The notes beneath the pieces are model-generated. The model worked only from the letters and a program-made list of their open reading frames with translations, made no database searches and was not told the origin of the DNA. This document shows, one piece after another, positions 15,039 to 22,197 of a stretch of DNA of 59,357 nucleotides (position 1 is the first letter of the stretch; every line of letters begins with the position of its first letter). The stretch covers positions 1 through 59,357 of the forward strand of contig CANNMA010000001.1 in assembly GCA_947505805.1 (NCBI GenBank), read 5' to 3'. This stretch comes from a bacterium (GTDB taxonomy: Bacteria > Babelota > Babeliae > Babelales > CAIQNR01). The position numbers and the translations under genes were made by a program.

Positions 15039-15671
15039 TCACTCACCCCGTACAGGAATAAGTTCTTTTCTACAGGAAGGGCAGTGTGAGGATGTCTCTT
15101 TAAATTGATCATAACATGTTTCATGAAGATGATGCCCACAGGTAAAATGGCTCATCTTTTCATCGCTATCTTCTTGCAGGCAAAAGCAGGGAGTTTCATA
15201 TGACTTTATTTGGTTAAGTGTTGGTCTAAAAATATTGAATCTGCTTTTTTCAAAATGATGCTGTAAGTATGTTTTTGAGAGGGCCAATTTTTCTGGAAAA
15301 TAATGGTTAAAATATGAACAGGCAACTCCTGTTATAGAACTATACAGTAGGGGACGATCTTTAGGGTCTATATCATTTAAAACAATACTTTCATAAGCTT
15401 TCATAAGACTGACATACATTATTAGGCCTCCAGAAAGAATGCATGCTTGTTTTATAGTATCTTTATAAGTTGCTCTTTCTTCTAACACTGCTTCTCGCAT
15501 TTGATCAGTTTGATCAAATAGATAAGACATCCCTTTAAAGCTAGTAATTCCAGCAACACTATGCCCAGCGATTAACCCAATAAGATAACTGGTGGGTAGT
15601 TCTGCCGAAAAAGATTGCGAATGTAGTGAACATAACAGTATGAACAAGGCTGTGAGGATATTTTTTTTCAT
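15039..15671 (-). CDS. Signal-peptide, multi-hydrophobic-segment protein with a C-terminal RING-H2-like finger (family 1)
   Basis: 210 aa. N-terminus MKKNILTALFILLCSLHSQSFSA, with Gly/Ala-rich hydrophobic segments. The C-terminal finger is C-F-C-x13-C-x-H-x2-H-x2-C-x10-C-x2-C (PCFCLQEDSDEKMSHFTCGHHLHETCYDQFKETSSHCPSC). Confidence 0.7.
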   Translation of the reverse strand: MKKNILTALFILLCSLHSQSFSAELPTSYLIGLIAGHSVAGITSFKGMSYLFDQTDQMREAVLEERATYKDTIKQACILSGGLIMYVSLMKAYESIVLNDIDPKDRPLLYSSITGVACSYFNHYFPEKLALSKTYLQHHFEKSRFNIFRPTLNQIKSYETPCFCLQEDSDEKMSHFTCGHHLHETCYDQFKETSSHCPSCRKELIPVRGE

Positions 15672-15775
15672 CTTAACTCCAAACTACTATCTAGACTAAA
15701 AAGTGATTACTATCTGATTTAAAAAAAGAAAAACAGGTTAATCGATCATTCTCATATTGAAAGTCGTTAAGTTTT

Positions 15776-16258
15776 TTAAAGATGTTTAATTTTTTCAGAT
15801 TCATCCATAACGCTTGATACATAAGTGTCTTTTTTTGTGTACCATTCATAGGCAGCTCCTGAAAGGTCCCAGAGAGCTTGTGCTGCCGCCCCTTGAAATG
15901 CATAGATAACAGCTTCATCAGCTGTTGGTACGGCTGAATGTTTTGGAGTCATGTAAAGAATCGCCATCATTCCAGTAATGGTCAAGCTGTTTAAAATAGT
16001 ATTTTTAATGATACGTTTTTCTTTTTGACTGAGTATTTTACGAGGGTCTTCTAAAAAATCTTTAGAAAACTCTGTTTCTAGAGCAAGCTTTGTAAGATTA
16101 TAAAAAGCTGCACCTACTCCTGCTTCCAGTAAGGGCCGAACAACTGTTTTTGTTAATTCGAATTGAGAGCTGAAAGGTTCTTGTTGGTCACAGCAAAAAC
16201 TGTCTGCGTTTGAAAGTAAAATAATCATACTCATGAGCATTACATTGTTTGTTTTCAT
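15776..16258 (-). CDS. Family-1 paralog lacking the RING module
   Basis: The start is trimmed to the ATG at 16258 (MKTNNVMLMSMIILLSNADSF). It has the same signal-peptide plus Gly/Ala-rich hydrophobic architecture as its two neighbours but no Cys/His finger. Confidence 0.55.
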   Translation of the reverse strand: MKTNNVMLMSMIILLSNADSFCCDQQEPFSSQFELTKTVVRPLLEAGVGAAFYNLTKLALETEFSKDFLEDPRKILSQKEKRIIKNTILNSLTITGMMAILYMTPKHSAVPTADEAVIYAFQGAAAQALWDLSGAAYEWYTKKDTYVSSVMDESEKIKHL

Positions 16259-16335
16259 GTATTTTCCCCAAATTTTAATAAATAAAAATAAAATAATGGG
16301 AAAGTATAACGTAATCAATAAAACTATCTATACAA

Positions 16336-16947
16336 TTATTCGCCTCGCACAGGGATAAGTTCTTTTCTGCACAGTGGGCAAAGCTGGCAGGTCTCTTTAA
16401 GTTGGTTGTAACAGGCTGTATGAAGATGATGTCCACAAGTAAAATGGCTGATTTTTTCATCGCTGTCTTCTTCTAAGCAAAAACAGGGAGTGTCGTACGA
16501 TTCTATCTGATCAACTGTTGGTCTAAAAATATTTAATCGACTTCTGATAAGACATTTTTTCAAAAGATTTCCAGAAATACGACTCATTGCATTTAAAGAT
16601 GCTCCTGTTACTGCTCGTATACAGTGATAGCGGTGGGTAGCCCCTTGCTCATATGACTGAGAAAGTACAGCAATTATGCCTACGAGTGCTGCGCTGTTAA
16701 CAAGAACTTTTGTAATGATATGGATATCTGATCGAGAAAACTCTTGGTTAGTTGTCAGATCGATTTCATGAGCAAGAGCATTAAGATTAAAAAGCAGAAA
16801 TCCAGTTGCAGTTTCCATCAGTGCTTGATGTGTTCCATCAAAAGCTTCTTCCAGTACTGCAACATTTTCTTGAGTTTGCTGTGCGCAAAAAATCTGCCCA
16901 TGCAGCATGAGCGTTATAAAAAAAGCCTTTATGAGATGATTTTTCAT
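16336..16947 (-). CDS. Signal-peptide, multi-hydrophobic-segment protein with a C-terminal RING-H2-like finger (family 1)
   Basis: The C-terminal ~65 aa are nearly identical to the gene at 15039-15671 (SRLNIFRPTVDQIESYDTPCFCLEEDSDEKISHFTCGHHLHTACYNQLKETCQLCPLCRKELIPVRGE). The start is set at the ATG after GGAGG. The track start is a GTG inside the SD. Confidence 0.7.
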   Translation of the reverse strand: MKNHLIKAFFITLMLHGQIFCAQQTQENVAVLEEAFDGTHQALMETATGFLLFNLNALAHEIDLTTNQEFSRSDIHIITKVLVNSAALVGIIAVLSQSYEQGATHRYHCIRAVTGASLNAMSRISGNLLKKCLIRSRLNIFRPTVDQIESYDTPCFCLEEDSDEKISHFTCGHHLHTACYNQLKETCQLCPLCRKELIPVRGE

Positions 16948-16984
16948 AGTAACCTCCACATATGAATAGTATGAATTTTCTATC

Positions 16985-20672: not shown

Positions 20673-20701
20673 AATAATCGCCTAGTTTTAGAGTACAAGT
20701 C

Positions 20702-21121
20702 TTAATCTTTAGTAATTGTTTTTTCGTTTTTTGCTTCAGGCTGTGTTGAGGAGTTTTGAGAAAAATAGTTATACAATTTTGTGCTTACAAACCCACTTAT
20801 TACAATTGGTGTTATGATACAAGCAGCTTTTTGTGCAGGAGTTAAAGTATCACCAAAAATAGATGAAAAAGCGTATGAAACAGGGGATGCATAAACAGGA
20901 GCCAAAAGACCTATTCCAGCTAGTATGCCAACTGTTTTAAGACTACCTTTGCTAATAGTGCGTGATGGATCCATTGTACCATGGATATGACCAAGAATAG
21001 ATGGGGTCATTATTCCTGCTACAAACAATTCTTCTGAAAAAGGAATTGAGTAGTTATTGTCAGCTGAATGTAGTTGCTGTGTGGTTCCGAGTAGAGTTGT
21101 TGCTAGGGCGATAATAATCAT
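20702..21121 (-). CDS. Family-2 module-only protein (N-terminal leader lost to a frameshift)
   Basis: 139 aa starting MIIIALATTLLGTTQQLHSAD. The upstream 78 nt are homologous to the N-terminal leader of the gene at 21229-21714 but are out of frame (T5 here versus T6 in the paralog). Confidence 0.55.
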   Translation of the reverse strand: MIIIALATTLLGTTQQLHSADNNYSIPFSEELFVAGIMTPSILGHIHGTMDPSRTISKGSLKTVGILAGIGLLAPVYASPVSYAFSSIFGDTLTPAQKAACIITPIVISGFVSTKLYNYFSQNSSTQPEAKNEKTITKD

Positions 21122-21228
21122 ACACCTTGGCTTTGTAACCTTTGTAGGACCAGTCGGTGTGACTGCGAGTATTTGTTTTTATTCATCATAATCTCCATTA
21201 TTTTTACTAAAGTGTTACGGATTGTTTT

Positions 21229-21714
21229 TTATCCAGCTATTGGTTCTTCTTGCTGAATAGGTTGTGCTGGGTGATTAGCGTCAAAGCCTGCAAGTGCAGC
21301 TGCTCTATATATGTTGTTGGTTATTTTTTGAACAATTATGACTATTGAAAACCCCAAAACAATTTTTGTTGCAAACTTTTCATGATCATTAAAAGATTTT
21401 GGAATACAACAAAAAAGAGATTTTGCTAAACTATCAGCTAAAAGACCATTTCCGACCATTCCACTAAAATTTGTGAGACTGTTGAAGGTTATGCTATTGT
21501 GTGGTGGATTAATTTTTCCATGTATATATCCAGTAATTGCTGGTATTGCTAGTCCTGCTACTCCTGTAGCATAAACTTCGAGTAAAGAAACATTGTCAGC
21601 TGAATGCAGCTGCTCTGTAGTTCCAAATAGAGTTGTTGCTAGGGCGATACTAAGCATCCACCTTTGCTTTGTAGGACAGGTCGGCGTAACTGTGAGTACT
21701 TGTTTTTTATTCAT
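21229..21714 (-). CDS. Family-2 module-only protein
   Basis: MNKKQVLTVTPTCPTKQRWMLSIALATTLFGTTEQLHSAD, followed by a diverged hydrophobic module. The start is at the ATG after GGAG. Confidence 0.55.
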   Translation of the reverse strand: MNKKQVLTVTPTCPTKQRWMLSIALATTLFGTTEQLHSADNVSLLEVYATGVAGLAIPAITGYIHGKINPPHNSITFNSLTNFSGMVGNGLLADSLAKSLFCCIPKSFNDHEKFATKIVLGFSIVIIVQKITNNIYRAAALAGFDANHPAQPIQQEEPIAG

Positions 21715-21747
21715 GATAATCTCCATTATTTTTTAATTATTACTATT

Positions 21748-22197
21748 TTAAAGGTCGAACTTTTCATCTTCTTTAGGTAATTCTGGTGCAGCTTGAACAG
21801 GTTGTACTGGTGCTGGTTGATTAATGTGTATAGAGGCAAGAAATATCATTGAACTTATGGTGTGAGCGGACGTTATTGATACTAAACCTGTTGCAATCCC
21901 TTTTATGATAGGATAACTAGAAAGCTCTGAAAAATAAGCAGAAGAATAATATGATGAAATAGGGTTTATTAAAACAGCTGTTAAAAGTCCTGTTCCTGTT
22001 AGTATTCCAATGACTGGAGCAAGATTGGCTTCATGTGATCTATGTGCAAATAAATAACCTCCAATTGCTGGTGCTGCTAGTCCTGCTGCTCCTAGAATAC
22101 AGAGTCTGCTATTAAAAAAAGCATCGTCAGCTGAATGTAGCTGCTGTGTAGTTCCAAATAAAGTTGTTGCTAGGGCAATAATAAGTAATTTTTTCAT
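21748..22197 (-). CDS. Family-2 module-only protein
   Basis: MKKLLIIALATTLFGTTQQLHSAD plus a Gly-rich hydrophobic module (VIGILTGTGLLTAVLINPISSYYSS). The C-terminus is P/Q-rich. Confidence 0.55.
   Translation of the reverse strand: MKKLLIIALATTLFGTTQQLHSADDAFFNSRLCILGAAGLAAPAIGGYLFAHRSHEANLAPVIGILTGTGLLTAVLINPISSYYSSAYFSELSSYPIIKGIATGLVSITSAHTISSMIFLASIHINQPAPVQPVQAAPELPKEDEKFDL

What the first reader, a model, noticed from the sequence alone, without database searches (positions are those of the whole stretch)
15039..22197. Nine-gene co-directional array of signal-peptide, multi-hydrophobic-segment paralogs, three with RING fingers: a candidate system of membrane-tethered ubiquitin-ligase mimics
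Seen in sequence: nine consecutive minus-strand genes are separated by gaps of about 30-110 nt. Family 1 comprises 15039-15671, 15776-16258 and 16336-16947. Each has a signal peptide plus two or three Gly/Ala-rich hydrophobic segments. The two outer genes end in a nearly identical ~65-aa module containing a RING-H2-like finger, and the middle gene lacks it. Family 2 comprises 16985-18697, 18741-20672, 20702-21121, 21229-21714 and 21748-22197. These share a ~100-aa module, ..DPSR.I.KGSLK.VGI.AGIG.L.P.YA.PVSY..SS..GDTLTPAQKAA.I..PIV.SG..STKLYNYFS, which is two closely spaced hydrophobic stretches. The module stands alone in three short genes. In the 570-aa protein it precedes a P/Q-rich linker and a helical domain. 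In the 643-aa protein it follows a RING-like finger. Established: RING fingers are eukaryotic E2-recruiting ubiquitin-ligase domains mimicked by the effectors of intracellular bacteria. Paired hydrophobic lobes are typical of effectors inserted into host-derived vacuole membranes (Inc-type). Inference: the array is a locally amplified set of membrane-anchored E3 mimics plus RING-less partners or decoys. I cannot match either module to a named family.
Basis: partly seen in the sequence, partly recalled or inferred. Interest (0 to 1): 0.8.

Follow-up and report, generated by a model that had tools for sequence, protein, structure and literature searches.

The report
Exported RING-finger membrane protein gene cluster
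An uncultured, probably protist-infecting bacterium carries a row of eight fast-evolving orphan genes for exported, weakly hydrophobic proteins. Three of them end in or contain a genuine eukaryote-type RING finger, so they are plausible host-directed ubiquitin ligases, but export, membrane insertion and ligase activity are all untested.

Summary
Eight genes (not nine) lie head to tail on the minus strand at 15039-22197, with gaps of 29-107 nt, and they form two paralog families.

Three proteins carry true RING domains:
- They hit Pfam zf-RING_2 at 25-32 bits.
- All metal-ligand columns are conserved in the orthologs.
- The E2-contact residues and the linchpin Arg are present.
- dN/dS is 0.06 on the g1/g3 RING module.
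- A moderate-confidence AlphaFold model of the g1 RING matches only RING domains in the PDB.

Both hydrophobic modules are orphans. An exhaustive HMMER search of 1.84 billion proteins finds them in three further proteins on a few metagenomic contigs. The two contigs long enough to show it (L083, L084) place the genes next to groEL.

The organism is a low-GC diderm with signal-peptide ankyrin proteins and a fourth, soluble signal-peptide RING protein. Its 16S matches a Ca. Babelota (Dependentiae/TM6) probe at 17 of 18 bases.

My best reading (about 0.5) is Sec-exported RING E3 ligases that insert into host membranes, plus RING-less paralogs.

Three caveats apply:
- Most "transmembrane" segments are only marginally hydrophobic.
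- Signal peptides were judged by eye only.
- A topology that leaves the RING in the bacterial cytoplasm is not excluded.

The proteins are not Inc, MARCH or U-box family members. I rate this a new variant of a known kind, of moderate interest.

The parts
15039..15671 (-). g1, family 1, 210 aa. Signal-like N-terminus, two or three weak hydrophobic helices, C-terminal RING-H2.
   Evidence: ORF. zf-RING_2 28.9 bits, above the 27.3 gathering threshold. Best PDB sequence hits are RNF165/Arkadia at E 7e-5. TGGAG Shine-Dalgarno 5 nt upstream of the ATG.
15072..15188 (-). RING-H2 finger of g1: C-x-C ... C-x-H-x2-H-x2-C ... C-x2-C-R.
   Evidence: Regex and translation. AlphaFold model core pLDDT 72-78, and the top 50 Foldseek PDB matches are all RING domains. 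dN/dS 0.06 against g3.
15776..16258 (-). g2, family 1, 160 aa. A RING-less, truncated paralog.
   Evidence: 26% identity to g3 over 132 aa, E 9e-8. The family profile A10 hits it. The alignment ends at the start of the RING module.
16336..16947 (-). g3, family 1, 203 aa, with a C-terminal RING-H2 at 16369-16485. It has one TM-grade segment, aa 77-95.
   Evidence: zf-RING_2 25.2 bits. Hessa-scale sum 1.9. RING regex match.
16985..18697 (-). g4, family 2, 570 aa. N-terminal signal plus bilobed module (about 18323-18619), then a P/Q-rich linker, then an orphan helical C-terminal domain (about 16988-17740).
   Evidence: Ortholog P0012 is 36% identical. No PDB or Pfam match for the C-terminal domain.
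18741..20672 (-). g5, family 2, 643 aa. Signal plus N-terminal module-like region, a helical middle, a C4HC3-pattern RING (19458-19610), a C-terminal bilobed module (about 19053-19331), and a repeat-containing acidic and P/Q-rich tail.
   Evidence: zf-RING_2 26.8 bits for the whole protein and 31.7 bits for the fragment. The module profile matches aa 415-560. The N-terminal profile A9 hits g8 at E 2e-7.
20702..21121 (-). g6, family 2, 139 aa, module only. The leader is disrupted: the ancestral ATG at 21184-21186 is out of frame after an A-run at 21176-21180.
   Evidence: 53% identity to g4. DNA repeats D3, D6 and D9 match the g7 5' end. Translation and sequence.
21229..21714 (-). g7, family 2, 161 aa, a divergent module-only protein.
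21748..22197 (-). g8, family 2, 149 aa, divergent. Its three segments are the most hydrophobic in the array.
   Evidence: Hessa-scale sums 1.1, 2.6 and 3.3.
14897..14924 (.). GC-rich hairpin with a T-run between the convergent groEL and g1. It is a likely terminator closing the array.
   Evidence: Terminator scan: 11-bp stem with 5 GC pairs.
22258..22285 (-). Promoter-like site (TTGACA-16-TATTCT) in the 259-nt gap upstream of g8. It is a possible start of an eight-gene transcription unit.
   Evidence: Weak evidence: the number of promoter-like sites in the region is at chance level.
42433..43188 (-). A fourth RING protein outside the array, 251 aa. It has a signal-like N-terminus, no hydrophobic segment and a canonical C-terminal RING-H2.
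   Evidence: zf-RING_2 44.9 bits, E 1.4e-11. Sequence. No hydrophobic segment beyond the N-terminus.

Best explanation
The segment is a lineage-specific "secretome" locus next to groESL in an uncultured, low-GC diderm bacterium. The bacterium is probably a protist-associated member of Dependentiae / Ca. Babelota.

**What it encodes.** Eight separately translated genes encode proteins with Sec-type N-terminal signals and Gly/Ala/Ser-rich helices that are mostly only marginally hydrophobic. They belong to two orphan families. Three of them carry genuine eukaryote-type RING domains.

**Proposed mechanism (inferred, not shown).**
1. The proteins are exported by Sec. They are then released across the outer membrane, by the type II system conserved in TM6 genomes or by vesicles.
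2. Their hydrophobic hairpins are too weak to act as stop-transfer anchors in the bacterial inner membrane. They insert into a host membrane from the cytosolic face.
3. The RING recruits a host E2~ubiquitin and ubiquitinates nearby proteins.
4. The RING-less paralogs (g2, g4, g6, g7, g8) share the same anchors. They either carry other heads, such as the g4 C-terminal domain, or associate with the RING-bearing members.

**Shown:** the genes, the two families, the RING homology, the constraint on the RING, the very fast evolution and cassette exchange of the rest, and the narrow distribution.

**Inferred:** export, the target membrane and E3 activity.
For: **The RINGs look functional**
- zf-RING_2 hits in g1, g3 and g5. 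The best PDB sequence relatives are active RING-H2 E3s: RNF165, Arkadia, RNF13, RNF38, gp78, Hrd1 and RNF126.
- Seven ligand columns are invariant across g1, g3 and orthologs P0015 and P0016.
- E2-contact positions are kept: a hydrophobic residue before Cys2, an aromatic residue four after Cys6, and a Pro after Cys7. All three are present in g1, g3 and g5. The separate fourth RING protein has Ala after Cys7. The linchpin Arg after Cys8 is kept in all four (read from the sequences).
- g1 versus g3 over the RING module gives dN 0.117, dS about 2.1 and dN/dS 0.06. Their N-terminal parts have dN 0.96.
- The RING model has the beta-beta-alpha layout with core pLDDT 72-78. Its top 50 PDB fold matches are all RING domains, at TM 0.41-0.68.

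**Export is plausible**
- Every array protein starts with an MKK-type n-region followed by an h-region.
- The same window has two ankyrin proteins and a soluble RING-H2 protein with the same kind of N-terminus. If that N-terminus is a working signal peptide, a RING behind it with no anchor makes sense only outside the bacterium.
- In cultured Dependentiae, 79 of 126 (Babela, PMC4378268) and 78% of 98 (Chromulinavorax, PMC6561590) ankyrin proteins carry signal peptides. Babela has a RING protein. TM6 genomes share a type II secretion system with two gspD copies (PMC4776705).
- Most array segments score 4-6 on the crude Hessa sum, against mostly -2 to +3 for true inner-membrane proteins in the window.

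**Evolution fits an effector locus**
- Array orthologs in relative L083 have dN 0.6-0.8 (34-42% identity). The adjacent groEL has dN 0.027 and dS 0.50.
- Gene order differs between the window and L083.
- In two near-identical strains (1 mismatch in 640 nt), the middle of the g5-like gene is swapped between a RING-bearing and a RING-less cassette.

**Distribution is narrow**
- An exhaustive profile search of 1.84 billion proteins found three further proteins. These lie on four contigs.
- Word-indexed searches of 5.8 billion proteins found only close relatives.
- Nothing was found in GTDB genomes, JGI metagenomes or IMG/VR.

**Taxonomy**
- 16S positions 59016-59033 match the Ca. Babelota probe target at 17 of 18 bases (probe from PMC12172432).
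- GroEL is at most 70% identical to any phylum that was hit.
Against: - No signal-peptide or topology predictor was available. Several predicted cleavage sites lack a small residue at -3.
- g3 (1.9) and g8 (1.1-3.3) have segments hydrophobic enough to stay in the bacterial inner membrane.
- With a cleaved signal and an odd number of membrane passes, the C-terminal RING of g1 and g3 would sit in the bacterial cytoplasm.
- g1 and g3 have C-x-C instead of C-x2-C at the first ligand pair. g3 and g5 fall just below the Pfam gathering score as whole proteins.
- The full-length g1 model was useless, with pLDDT 45.
- The RING-only model was built on an alignment of RING proteins, so its fold match is partly circular.
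- No secretion system, E2 or ubiquitin gene can be assessed from one window.
- The phylum assignment rests on one probe site with a mismatch plus gene-content analogy.
- groEL dS may be depressed by codon bias, which would exaggerate the rate contrast.
Confidence: 0.5

Rival explanations
1. These are bacterial inner-membrane proteins whose RING faces the bacterial cytoplasm. The N-terminal signal is cleaved or acts as an anchor. One or three helices span the inner membrane. The C-terminal RING of g1 and g3 stays inside the bacterium and serves as a zinc-dependent interaction module for a bacterial process. The RING-less paralogs are ordinary small envelope proteins.
For: - g3 has one clearly TM-grade segment (sum 1.9) and g8 has three (1.1-3.3).
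- A cleaved signal plus one or three passes puts the C-terminus in the cytoplasm.
- The stretch between the last helix and the RING is rich in Lys and Arg, which fits the positive-inside rule (sequence).
- The locus lies among envelope genes: PBP, BamA and a 470-aa OMP-like protein.
- Prokaryotic RING families do exist (Pfam Prok-RING_1 to Prok-RING_4).
Against: - The RINGs match the eukaryotic zf-RING_2 model far better than the Prok-RING models (E 1e-6 against 0.2-0.4).
- They keep the E2-contact residues and the linchpin Arg. These have no known use without E2~Ub.
- No E1, E2 or JAB genes are nearby.
- The same genome exports a soluble RING-H2 protein and ankyrin proteins behind the same kind of signal.
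- Most segments are too weakly hydrophobic for stable inner-membrane anchoring.
- Evolution is extremely fast, with cassette swapping. That is unusual for housekeeping envelope proteins.
Confidence: 0.22
2. These are periplasmic or surface structural proteins of the parasite envelope, with glycine-zipper-like small membrane-associated helices. The RING is a leftover of a gene captured from a eukaryote and has no ubiquitin-related role.
For: - GxxxG-rich segments such as VGILAGIGLL and GILTGTGLL recall glycine-zipper envelope lipoproteins (from the sequence and my own knowledge).
- Five of the eight proteins have no RING.
- g2 lost its RING, and one allele of the g5-like gene in a relative lacks it.
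Against: - There are no hits to the Gly-zipper, Rick_17kDa or any other envelope family in Pfam or NCBIfam, even at E<=1.
- dN/dS of 0.06 on the g1/g3 RING module since an old duplication shows the RING is maintained, not decaying.
- The ligand columns are invariant in the orthologs.
Confidence: 0.13
3. These are passively retained copies of host type-I transmembrane RING-H2 ligase genes (PA-TM-RING, ATL or RNF24-like). On this reading the signal + TM + RING layout simply mirrors the eukaryotic donor. The bacterial copies need not be adapted for delivery.
For: - The layout of signal, hydrophobic helix or helices and C-terminal RING-H2 is that of RNF13/RNF167-type ligases.
- RNF13, gp78 and Hrd1 are among the best sequence and fold matches.
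Against: - The regions outside the RING have no detectable homolog in any eukaryote among 5.8 billion or 1.84 billion proteins.
- GC content is like the rest of the window.
- The genes have bacterial TGGAG ribosome-binding sites.
- They are conserved next to groEL in a relative and are duplicated and recombined within the lineage. The lineage has therefore maintained and remodelled them.
Confidence: 0.08

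Closest known systems
Signal-peptide-bearing eukaryote-like proteins (ankyrin, F-box, RING) of Dependentiae / Ca. Babelota, such as Babela massiliensis and Chromulinavorax destructans
   Same: - Low-GC genome with many orphan proteins behind Sec-type signals.
- Ankyrin proteins with signal peptides.
- A RING protein was noted in Babela as a putative E3 (PMC4378268, PMC6561590).
- The window has two such ankyrin proteins and four RING proteins.
   Different: - The two papers I read for this point (PMC4378268, PMC6561590) describe no cluster of RING proteins fused to hydrophobic modules. 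I did not search the wider literature systematically.
- Phylum membership of this organism is only suggested, by a 17/18 match to a probe target.
Eukaryotic transmembrane RING-H2 E3 ligases (PA-TM-RING RNF13/RNF167, plant ATL, gp78/AMFR, Hrd1)
   Same: - A RING-H2 of the zf-RING_2 type sits C-terminal to a signal and hydrophobic helices.
- These ligases are among the best sequence and fold matches.
- E2-contact residues and the linchpin Arg are present.
   Different: - There is no PA, GLD or other eukaryotic ectodomain.
- The hydrophobic parts are unrelated orphans.
- g1 and g3 have C-x-C at the first ligand pair.
- The genes are encoded in a bacterium with bacterial ribosome-binding sites.
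MARCH and viral K3/K5/MIR membrane-associated RING-CH ligases
   Same: In g5, a RING with a C4HC3 ligand pattern is followed directly by a pair of hydrophobic helices. That is the same domain order as RING-CH + 2 TM.
   Different: - There is no hit to Pfam RINGv even at E<=10. The finger scores as zf-RING_2.
- The spacing between ligands 4 and 5 is 6 residues here and 13 in the ortholog, so it varies between the two.
- g5 also has an N-terminal signal, a second hydrophobic region and a 220-aa helical domain.
Bacterial effector E3 ligases of the RING/U-box type (NleG, LubX, GobX, AvrPtoB C-terminus)
   Same: The proposed logic is the same: a bacterial protein hijacks host E2~Ub through a RING-fold domain.
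   Different: - Those effectors are U-box-like folds without zinc ligands and are delivered by type III or IV systems (my own knowledge).
- The domains here are zinc-ligand-complete RINGs behind Sec-type signals, with hydrophobic modules.
Chlamydial Inc proteins
   Same: The family-2 module is bilobed. Two hydrophobic stretches of about 22-29 aa are separated by a 9-aa polar loop.
   Different: - There is no sequence relation.
- The N-terminus is Sec-like rather than a type III signal.
- The lobes are much less hydrophobic.
- The organism has FtsZ, FtsA and a PBP. On my own knowledge the Chlamydiae lack FtsZ, and its 16S has the target of a probe designed for Ca. Babelota at 17/18, so it is probably not a chlamydia.
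Prokaryotic RING families (Pfam Prok-RING_1 to Prok-RING_4)
   Same: They are RING-fold zinc fingers encoded in bacteria.
   Different: - Matches are only marginal: E 0.2 for Prok-RING_4 in g1 and 0.38 for Prok-RING_1 in g5, against 1e-6 to 2e-7 for zf-RING_2.
- No E1, E2 or JAB neighbours were found.

Membership tests
RING-H2 / zf-RING_2 (PF13639) E3 ligase domain | Profile match at or above the Pfam gathering score (27.3 bits) | tested here: met
   g1 scores 28.9 bits and the g5 RING fragment 31.7 bits. g3 (25.2), whole g5 (26.8) and ortholog P0015 (26.4) fall just below. The fourth RING protein scores 44.9.
RING-H2 / zf-RING_2 (PF13639) E3 ligase domain | Eight zinc ligands in C3H2C3 order with canonical spacing (C-x2-C ... 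C-x-H-x2-H-x2-C ... C-x2-C) | tested here: inconclusive
   All eight ligands are present. Orthologs P0015 and P0016 and the fourth RING protein are fully canonical. g1 and g3 have C-x-C at the first pair. g5 uses C-x-C-x6-H in place of C-x-H-x2-H.
RING-H2 / zf-RING_2 (PF13639) E3 ligase domain | Cross-brace beta-beta-alpha fold | tested here: inconclusive
   The g1 RING model has mean pLDDT 63 and core pLDDT 72-78, with strands at 31-34 and 39-41 and a helix at 42-51. The top 50 Foldseek PDB hits are all RING domains at TM 0.41-0.68, but no E-value is <=0.001. The alignment used was made of RING proteins and zinc was not modelled.
RING-H2 / zf-RING_2 (PF13639) E3 ligase domain | E2-binding surface residues and the linchpin Arg/Lys after the last Cys | tested here: met
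   Read from the sequences: g1 PCFCL ... CYDQF ... CPSCR; g5 CPIC ... CYFEY ... CPLCR; fourth RING protein CTIC ... CLKEW ... CAYCR. This is a sequence-level check only.
RING-H2 / zf-RING_2 (PF13639) E3 ligase domain | E2-dependent ubiquitin transfer | not testable with these tools
   Needs in vitro ubiquitination assays.
RING-CH / MARCH-K3 (Pfam RINGv) | Match to the RINGv profile, with C4HC3 ligands at the spacing C-x2-C-x(10-45)-C-x-C-x7-H-x2-C | tested here: not met
   The C4HC3 order is present in g5 and its ortholog. However, ligand 4-5 spacing is 6 and 13 residues, and no RINGv hit appears even at E<=10. DOA10 RING-CH scores only E 0.33 in the PDB search.
Chlamydial Inc proteins | Bilobed hydrophobic domain of two TM-grade helices, plus a type III secretion signal, in a chlamydial genome | tested here: not met
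   A bilobed pattern is present, but the lobes score 5.3-5.7 on the crude scale against mostly -2 to +3 for real TM helices. The N-terminus is Sec-like. The genome has ftsZ. On my own knowledge the Chlamydiae lack FtsZ.
U-box-type bacterial effector ligases (NleG, LubX) | RING-like fold stabilised without zinc ligands | tested here: not met
   A full set of Cys and His ligands is present and conserved.
Prokaryotic RING families (Prok-RING_1 to Prok-RING_4) | Profile match above threshold, usually with E1/E2/JAB-type neighbours | tested here: not met
   Best E-values are 0.2 and 0.38, far below the cut-offs of 27-29 bits. No such neighbours were found in the window.
Sec-exported effectors of Dependentiae / Ca. 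Babelota | The organism belongs to the phylum | tested here: inconclusive
   16S 59016-59033 matches the TM6_681 probe target at 17 of 18 bases, against 16 of 18 for the common bacterial sequence (PMC12172432). The GroEL search was uninformative, with at most 70% identity to mixed phyla.
Sec-exported effectors of Dependentiae / Ca. Babelota | Cleavable Sec signal peptide | not testable with these tools
   Only the n/h/c layout was inspected. SignalP or Phobius is needed.

The most novel reading that the evidence does not exclude
This would be a previously undescribed class of integral-membrane effector. The proteins would be true zinc RING E3 ligases and paralogous cargo heads mounted on an orphan, weakly hydrophobic bilobed hairpin. 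A bacterium lacking type III and IV secretion would export them through Sec and type II secretion, and they would then self-insert into host membranes. In function they would be a bacterial counterpart of MARCH/K3 ligases and chlamydial Incs. The central RING-bearing cassette would be exchanged between strains as an arms-race module.
Probability: 0.25. Interest if true: 0.75.

Novelty: new variant of a known kind. Interest (0 to 1): 0.5.

Why it matters
Bacterial effectors that hijack host ubiquitination are well known. On my own recollection, most are U-box, HECT-like or NEL folds delivered by type III or IV systems.

This locus has complete zinc RING domains under strong constraint. They sit behind Sec-type signals and are joined to orphan hydrophobic modules. 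The lineage is probably Dependentiae, whose host-manipulation machinery is almost wholly unknown and whose only described export routes are Sec and type II secretion.

If the proteins reach host membranes, they would give a tractable handle on two things:
- how these parasites deliver membrane proteins to the host;
- which host pathways they ubiquitinate.

The RING-plus versus RING-minus cassette polymorphism in near-identical strains would then be a natural experiment on effector evolution.

If instead the RING faces the bacterial cytoplasm, the locus would be an unusual case of a eukaryote-type RING used inside a bacterium.

Tried and rejected
**Family and system searches**
- Pfam, NCBIfam, PADLOC and PHROGs on all array proteins gave nothing except the RING. 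This rules out a known envelope family, defence system or phage origin.
- PDB profile searches with the g4 and g5 family alignments gave no significant match for the g4 C-terminal domain or the g5 central domain.
- Profile-profile comparison of family 1 with family 2 shows they are unrelated (probability 1.7%). The g5 N-terminus against the module gave only 68% by hhalign. An HMM of the g5-type N-terminus does hit g8 at E 2e-7.

**Distribution searches**
- g5 against 5.8 billion proteins found only itself. The family-1 profile found only two orthologs.
- A GTDB genome scan with the module found nothing.
- A GTDB scan with GroEL, meant to identify the organism, was uninformative: the best hits were 70% identical across many phyla.
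- Two JGI metagenome scans and two IMG/VR scans found nothing.
- The top hit of the RING-only profile search (P0018) is a generic small RING-H2 protein. It says nothing about the donor.

**Structure prediction**
- The full-length g1 AlphaFold model had pLDDT 45 and was discarded.

**Other**
- Literature look-ups of run and sample accessions gave no hits.
- The promoter scan count was at chance level, so operon structure is not established.
- A lipoprotein reading was rejected. A lipobox-like LLAC occurs only in ortholog P0015 and is not conserved.
- Recent horizontal transfer was rejected. GC content of the array (0.36-0.40) lies within the window's range.

Full report
**1. Setting**

The window is bacterial chromosome at about 36% GC. 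It carries these housekeeping genes:
- ftsA and ftsZ, groES and groEL (12857-14847, plus strand), a PBP, BamA, cysS, release factor and guanylate kinase;
- five tRNAs and the first 1,010 positions of a 16S rRNA.

The exact proteins occur on an NCBI contig of the same length and in a Logan assembly of run SRR7054680. No source names the organism.

A GroEL scan of GTDB genomes gave at most 70% identity, spread over many phyla. That scan says little about lineage.

Three observations point to Dependentiae / Ca. Babelota:
- 16S positions 59016-59033 read GGAGTAGCGGTTAAATGC. That is 17 of 18 bases of the target of the Ca. Babelota-specific probe TM6_681 and primer TM6-V5-F2 (PMC12172432). The usual bacterial sequence matches at 16 of 18.
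- Two tandem ankyrin-repeat proteins carry signal-like N-termini (7658-8197 and 8218-8763). Most hypothetical proteins in the window begin the same way.
- This is the hallmark reported for Babela (79 of 126 ankyrin proteins with signal peptides, and one RING protein noted; PMC4378268) and for Chromulinavorax (44% of CDS and 78% of 98 ankyrin proteins; PMC6561590).

I treat "probably Dependentiae, probably protist-associated" as a working assumption, not a result.

**2. The observation**

Eight ORFs lie on the minus strand between 15039 and 22197, with gaps of 104, 77, 37, 43, 29, 107 and 33 nt.
- Six (g1, g2, g3, g4, g7, g8) have a GGAG- or GGGG-type ribosome-binding site 5-6 nt before the second in-frame ATG. 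g5 and g6 have no clear site.
- A strong hairpin with a T-run (14897-14924) separates g1 from the convergent groEL.
- A promoter-like site lies in the 259-nt gap upstream of g8. Promoter-like counts in the region are at chance level.
- The "ninth" gene would be g9 (22457-22939). It lies outside the stated coordinates. It is not a detectable family member: the family-2 profile finds no hit to it within the window at E<=1, and blastp against g4 and g8 gives E 0.09-0.14.

All-against-all BLASTP confirms the two families.
- Family 1: g1-g3 69% identity over the C-terminal 80 aa; g2-g3 26% over about 130 aa (E 9e-8).
- Family 2: g4-g6 53%; g5(448-613)-g4 E 9e-14; g6, g7 and g8 mutually E 1e-15 to 6e-18.
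- The two families are unrelated to each other (hhalign probability 1.7%).
- An HMM of the g5-type N-terminus also hits g8 (E 2e-7) and g6 (5e-4). g5 therefore probably carries a module-like region at both ends.
- No further copies exist elsewhere in the window.

**3. The RING fingers**

*Profile and sequence matches*
- Pfam zf-RING_2 matches g1 (28.9 bits; gathering score 27.3), g3 (25.2) and g5 (26.8 whole, 31.7 as a fragment).
- The best PDB sequence relatives are catalytically characterised RING-H2 ligases: RNF165/Ark2C, Arkadia, RNF13, RNF38, RLIM, gp78, Hrd1 and RNF126 (E 3e-5 to 1e-3).

*Ligand patterns*
- g1 and g3 read C-x-C ... C-x-H-x2-H-x2-C ... C-x2-C. That is a complete C3H2C3 set with one residue missing from the first knuckle.
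- Their orthologs P0015 and P0016 have the canonical C-x2-C.
- g5 and its 609-aa ortholog read C-x2-C ... C-x-C-x6/13-H-x2-C ... C-x2-C. This is a C4HC3 pattern.
- That pattern resembles RING-CH, but no RINGv profile hit appears even at E<=10. g5 is therefore a variant RING_2-type finger, not a MARCH family member.

*Signs of function*
- The positions that contact the E2 are kept. These are a hydrophobic residue before Cys2, an aromatic residue four after Cys6, and a Pro after Cys7. All three are present in g1, g3 and g5. The separate fourth RING protein has Ala after Cys7.
- The linchpin Arg after Cys8 is present in all four window RINGs (read).
- Between g1 and g3 the 68-aa RING module has dN 0.117, dS about 2.1 and dN/dS 0.06. 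The rest of the proteins has dN 0.96.
- The duplication is therefore old. The RING has been held under strong purifying selection in both copies despite the C-x-C knuckle.

*Structure*
- A full-length g1 model was unusable (pLDDT 45).
- A RING-only model built on 56 sequences reached pLDDT 63 (core 72-78) with the beta-hairpin-helix layout.
- Its top 50 Foldseek matches in the PDB are all RING domains (RNF38, RNF13, gp78, RNF165, RLIM, Rbx1), at TM 0.41-0.68.
- This is supportive but partly circular, because the alignment consisted of RING proteins.

**4. The hydrophobic modules**

Neither module matches Pfam, NCBIfam, PADLOC or PHROGs.

The family-2 module has a weak first helix and then two lobes, for example TVGILAGIGLLAPVYASPVSYAFSSIF and AACIITPIVISGFVSTKLYNYF in g6. 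The lobes are separated by GDTLTPAQK.

A crude sum of Hessa biological-scale values over 19 residues gives:

| Proteins | Segment scores (kcal/mol) |
|---|---|
| Array, most segments | 4-6 |
| Soluble ankyrin proteins, buried helices | 4.2-4.5 |
| Na/Ala symporter, Bax-inhibitor, OPT transporter (same window) | mostly -2 to +3, a few up to 5.7 |
| g3 | 1.9 (one segment) |
| g8 | 1.1, 2.6, 3.3 |

"Multi-TM" is therefore not established for most members. The weak segments could be marginal hairpins or simply helices of a soluble bundle.

Signal peptides were judged only by their n/h/c layout. Several have atypical -3 residues.

**5. Distribution and evolution**

*Distribution*
- The word-indexed search of 5.8 billion proteins with g5 found only itself.
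- The family-1 profile found only g1-g3, P0015 and P0016.
- The exhaustive HMMER search of 1.84 billion cluster representatives with the family-2 module found the five window proteins. It also found P0010 (1.8e-16), P0011 (5e-6) and P0012 (3e-5), plus one weak 29-residue match (3e-4) to a 4,060-aa protein that I disregard.
- GTDB genomes, JGI metagenomes and IMG/VR gave nothing.

*The locus in relatives*
- Contigs L083 and L084 carry, in order: a g4-like gene (648 aa), a g5-like gene (609 aa, with RING), one family-1 RING-H2 gene (214 aa), a signal + TM + coiled-coil gene, and a convergent groEL.
- Their GroEL is 95.4% identical to the window's.
- The locus is thus conserved in position. The g4/g5 order is reversed, and there is one family-1 gene where the window has three.

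*Rates*
- groEL has dN 0.027 and dS 0.50.
- The array orthologs have dN 0.6-0.8 (34-42% identity), above groEL's dS.
- groEL codon bias may exaggerate this contrast.

*Cassette exchange*
- L082 and L083 are identical at 639 of 640 aligned bases up to codon ~123 of the g5-like gene.
- They then diverge abruptly across the middle of the protein. L083 has the RING and L082 does not.
- They return to 97% identity over the last 168 aa.
- This looks like a recombinational cassette swap. Assembly mixing of paralogs cannot be fully excluded.

*Within the window*
- g4 and g6 share a younger duplication or conversion tract (76% DNA identity over 266 nt; dN 0.33, dS 0.51).
- g6 has lost its ancestral leader through a 1-nt deletion in an A-run.

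**6. Interpretation**

The combination best fits a host-directed locus, as set out in the best explanation. That combination is:
- eukaryote-type RINGs under constraint with E2-contact residues;
- Sec-like leaders;
- a soluble signal-peptide RING-H2 protein (42433-43188; 44.9 bits; no hydrophobic segment) and signal-peptide ankyrin proteins in the same genome;
- orphan, fast-evolving, recombining partners;
- restriction to a tiny clade.

TM6 genomes share a type II secretion system with two gspD copies (PMC4776705). Vesicle budding was seen in Chromulinavorax (PMC6561590). Both offer routes across the outer membrane.

Weak hydrophobicity would let the helices escape inner-membrane retention and insert later as hairpins from the host cytosolic side, leaving the RING cytosolic. 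That step rests on my own knowledge of secreted membrane effectors. It is inference.

The main rival is an inner-membrane topology with the RING in the bacterial cytoplasm. This is a real possibility for g3 in particular, which has one strong TM after a signal. I put the best explanation at 0.5 and this rival at about 0.22.

**7. Comparison with known systems, and novelty**

- The fingers are members of the RING-H2/zf-RING_2 superfamily, with two ligand-spacing variants.
- The proteins are not members of the RING-CH/MARCH, U-box effector, Prok-RING or Inc families. Each failed a tested defining feature (see the membership table).
- In function they would work like membrane-anchored RING ligases (RNF13/ATL/gp78, MARCH/K3), carried by a bacterium.
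- RING proteins in Dependentiae have been mentioned once in passing (PMC4378268). I found no description in the papers I read of a groEL-adjacent cluster of RINGs fused to orphan bilobed modules with cassette polymorphism.

I rate it a new variant of a known kind, with interest 0.5. It is a well-founded, testable lead. It sits in an uncultured organism, and the key steps (export, membrane insertion, E3 activity) remain untested.

Noticed in passing
window 42433-43188 (-): A fourth RING protein of 251 aa. It has a signal-like N-terminus, an ankyrin-like helical region seen by eye only, and a canonical C-terminal RING-H2 (zf-RING_2 44.9 bits). It has no hydrophobic segment. The same protein occurs on contigs from three other samples.
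   Followed up: partly
window 7658-8197 and 8218-8763 (-): Two tandem paralogous ankyrin-repeat proteins (Ank_2 E 5e-32 and 1e-28). Both begin MEKIMKKN... with signal-like N-termini. This is the hallmark of Dependentiae effectors.
   Followed up: partly
window 21122-21198 (-), upstream of g6: The g6 5' region is homologous to the g7 leader (85-97% DNA identity). It is out of frame after an A-run at 21176-21180, which has A5 where g7 has A6. The ancestral ATG is at 21184-21186. This could be a real frameshift, slippage in the homopolymer or a sequencing error.
   Followed up: partly
L082:275-1864 versus L083:2584-4413: In near-identical strains of a relative (1 mismatch in 640 nt), the central ~240-320 aa of the g5-like protein is replaced. 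One allele has the RING (609 aa) and the other lacks it (529 aa). The ends are 97-100% identical.
   Followed up: partly
L082:3555-4221 (-): In this relative, a 162-aa protein with an R-x4-H HEPN-like motif (RNLFAH) and a small upstream gene sit where L083 has groEL after the array. They may be a HepT/MntA-type toxin-antitoxin insertion. I did not run this against any profile.
   Followed up: no
window 9336-9677 (-): A 113-aa protein with a signal-like N-terminus and a C2H2-like pattern (C-x2-C-x12-H-x4-H). It has no Pfam hit at E<=0.05.
   Followed up: partly
window 38451-42336 (-): Two paralogous ~505-aa proteins with weak NodZ/FUT8 (alpha-1,6-fucosyltransferase) similarity flank a GT2 glycosyltransferase. 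They lie directly next to the fourth RING gene.
   Followed up: no
window 48507-50387 (+): A 626-aa signal-bearing protein with dozens of tandem PDPVK/PNPVK pentapeptide repeats, followed by an orphan C-terminal domain. The layout (anchor or signal, extended linker, head) recalls g4.
   Followed up: no
window 22457-25404 (-): The co-directional run continues beyond the finding. g9 (160 aa) has three hydrophobic segments. g10 and g11 (128 aa each) have a signal, one TM and a coiled coil. A 470-aa orphan ends in ...GGTAF, which is like an outer-membrane beta-barrel terminus. None has a family match.
   Followed up: partly
window 33990-34427 and 34445-34768 (-): A signal-bearing thioredoxin-fold protein (WCPYC motif) lies next to a cytoplasmic thioredoxin (WCGPC). 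An exported thiol-redox protein could matter for exported Cys-rich zinc fingers.
   Followed up: no
window 18865-18946 (-), g5 tail: A 51-nt direct repeat (90% identity) encodes QPQLAIEWH twice in the g5 C-terminal tail.
   Followed up: no
window, starts of g3, g4, g7, g8 and both ankyrin genes: The ribosome-binding site is embedded in a recurring ATGGAG(R)TTAYY-ATG motif. It creates an upstream in-frame ATG or GTG, giving apparent N-termini such as MEVIMKK, MEITMKK and MEKIMKK. ORF callers are likely to over-extend these genes by four codons.
   Followed up: partly
window 1007-1606 and 1620-2177 (-): A tandem pair of signal-bearing orphan paralogs. Both start MKKNIL... and end ...FAIEQELxAI....
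   Followed up: no
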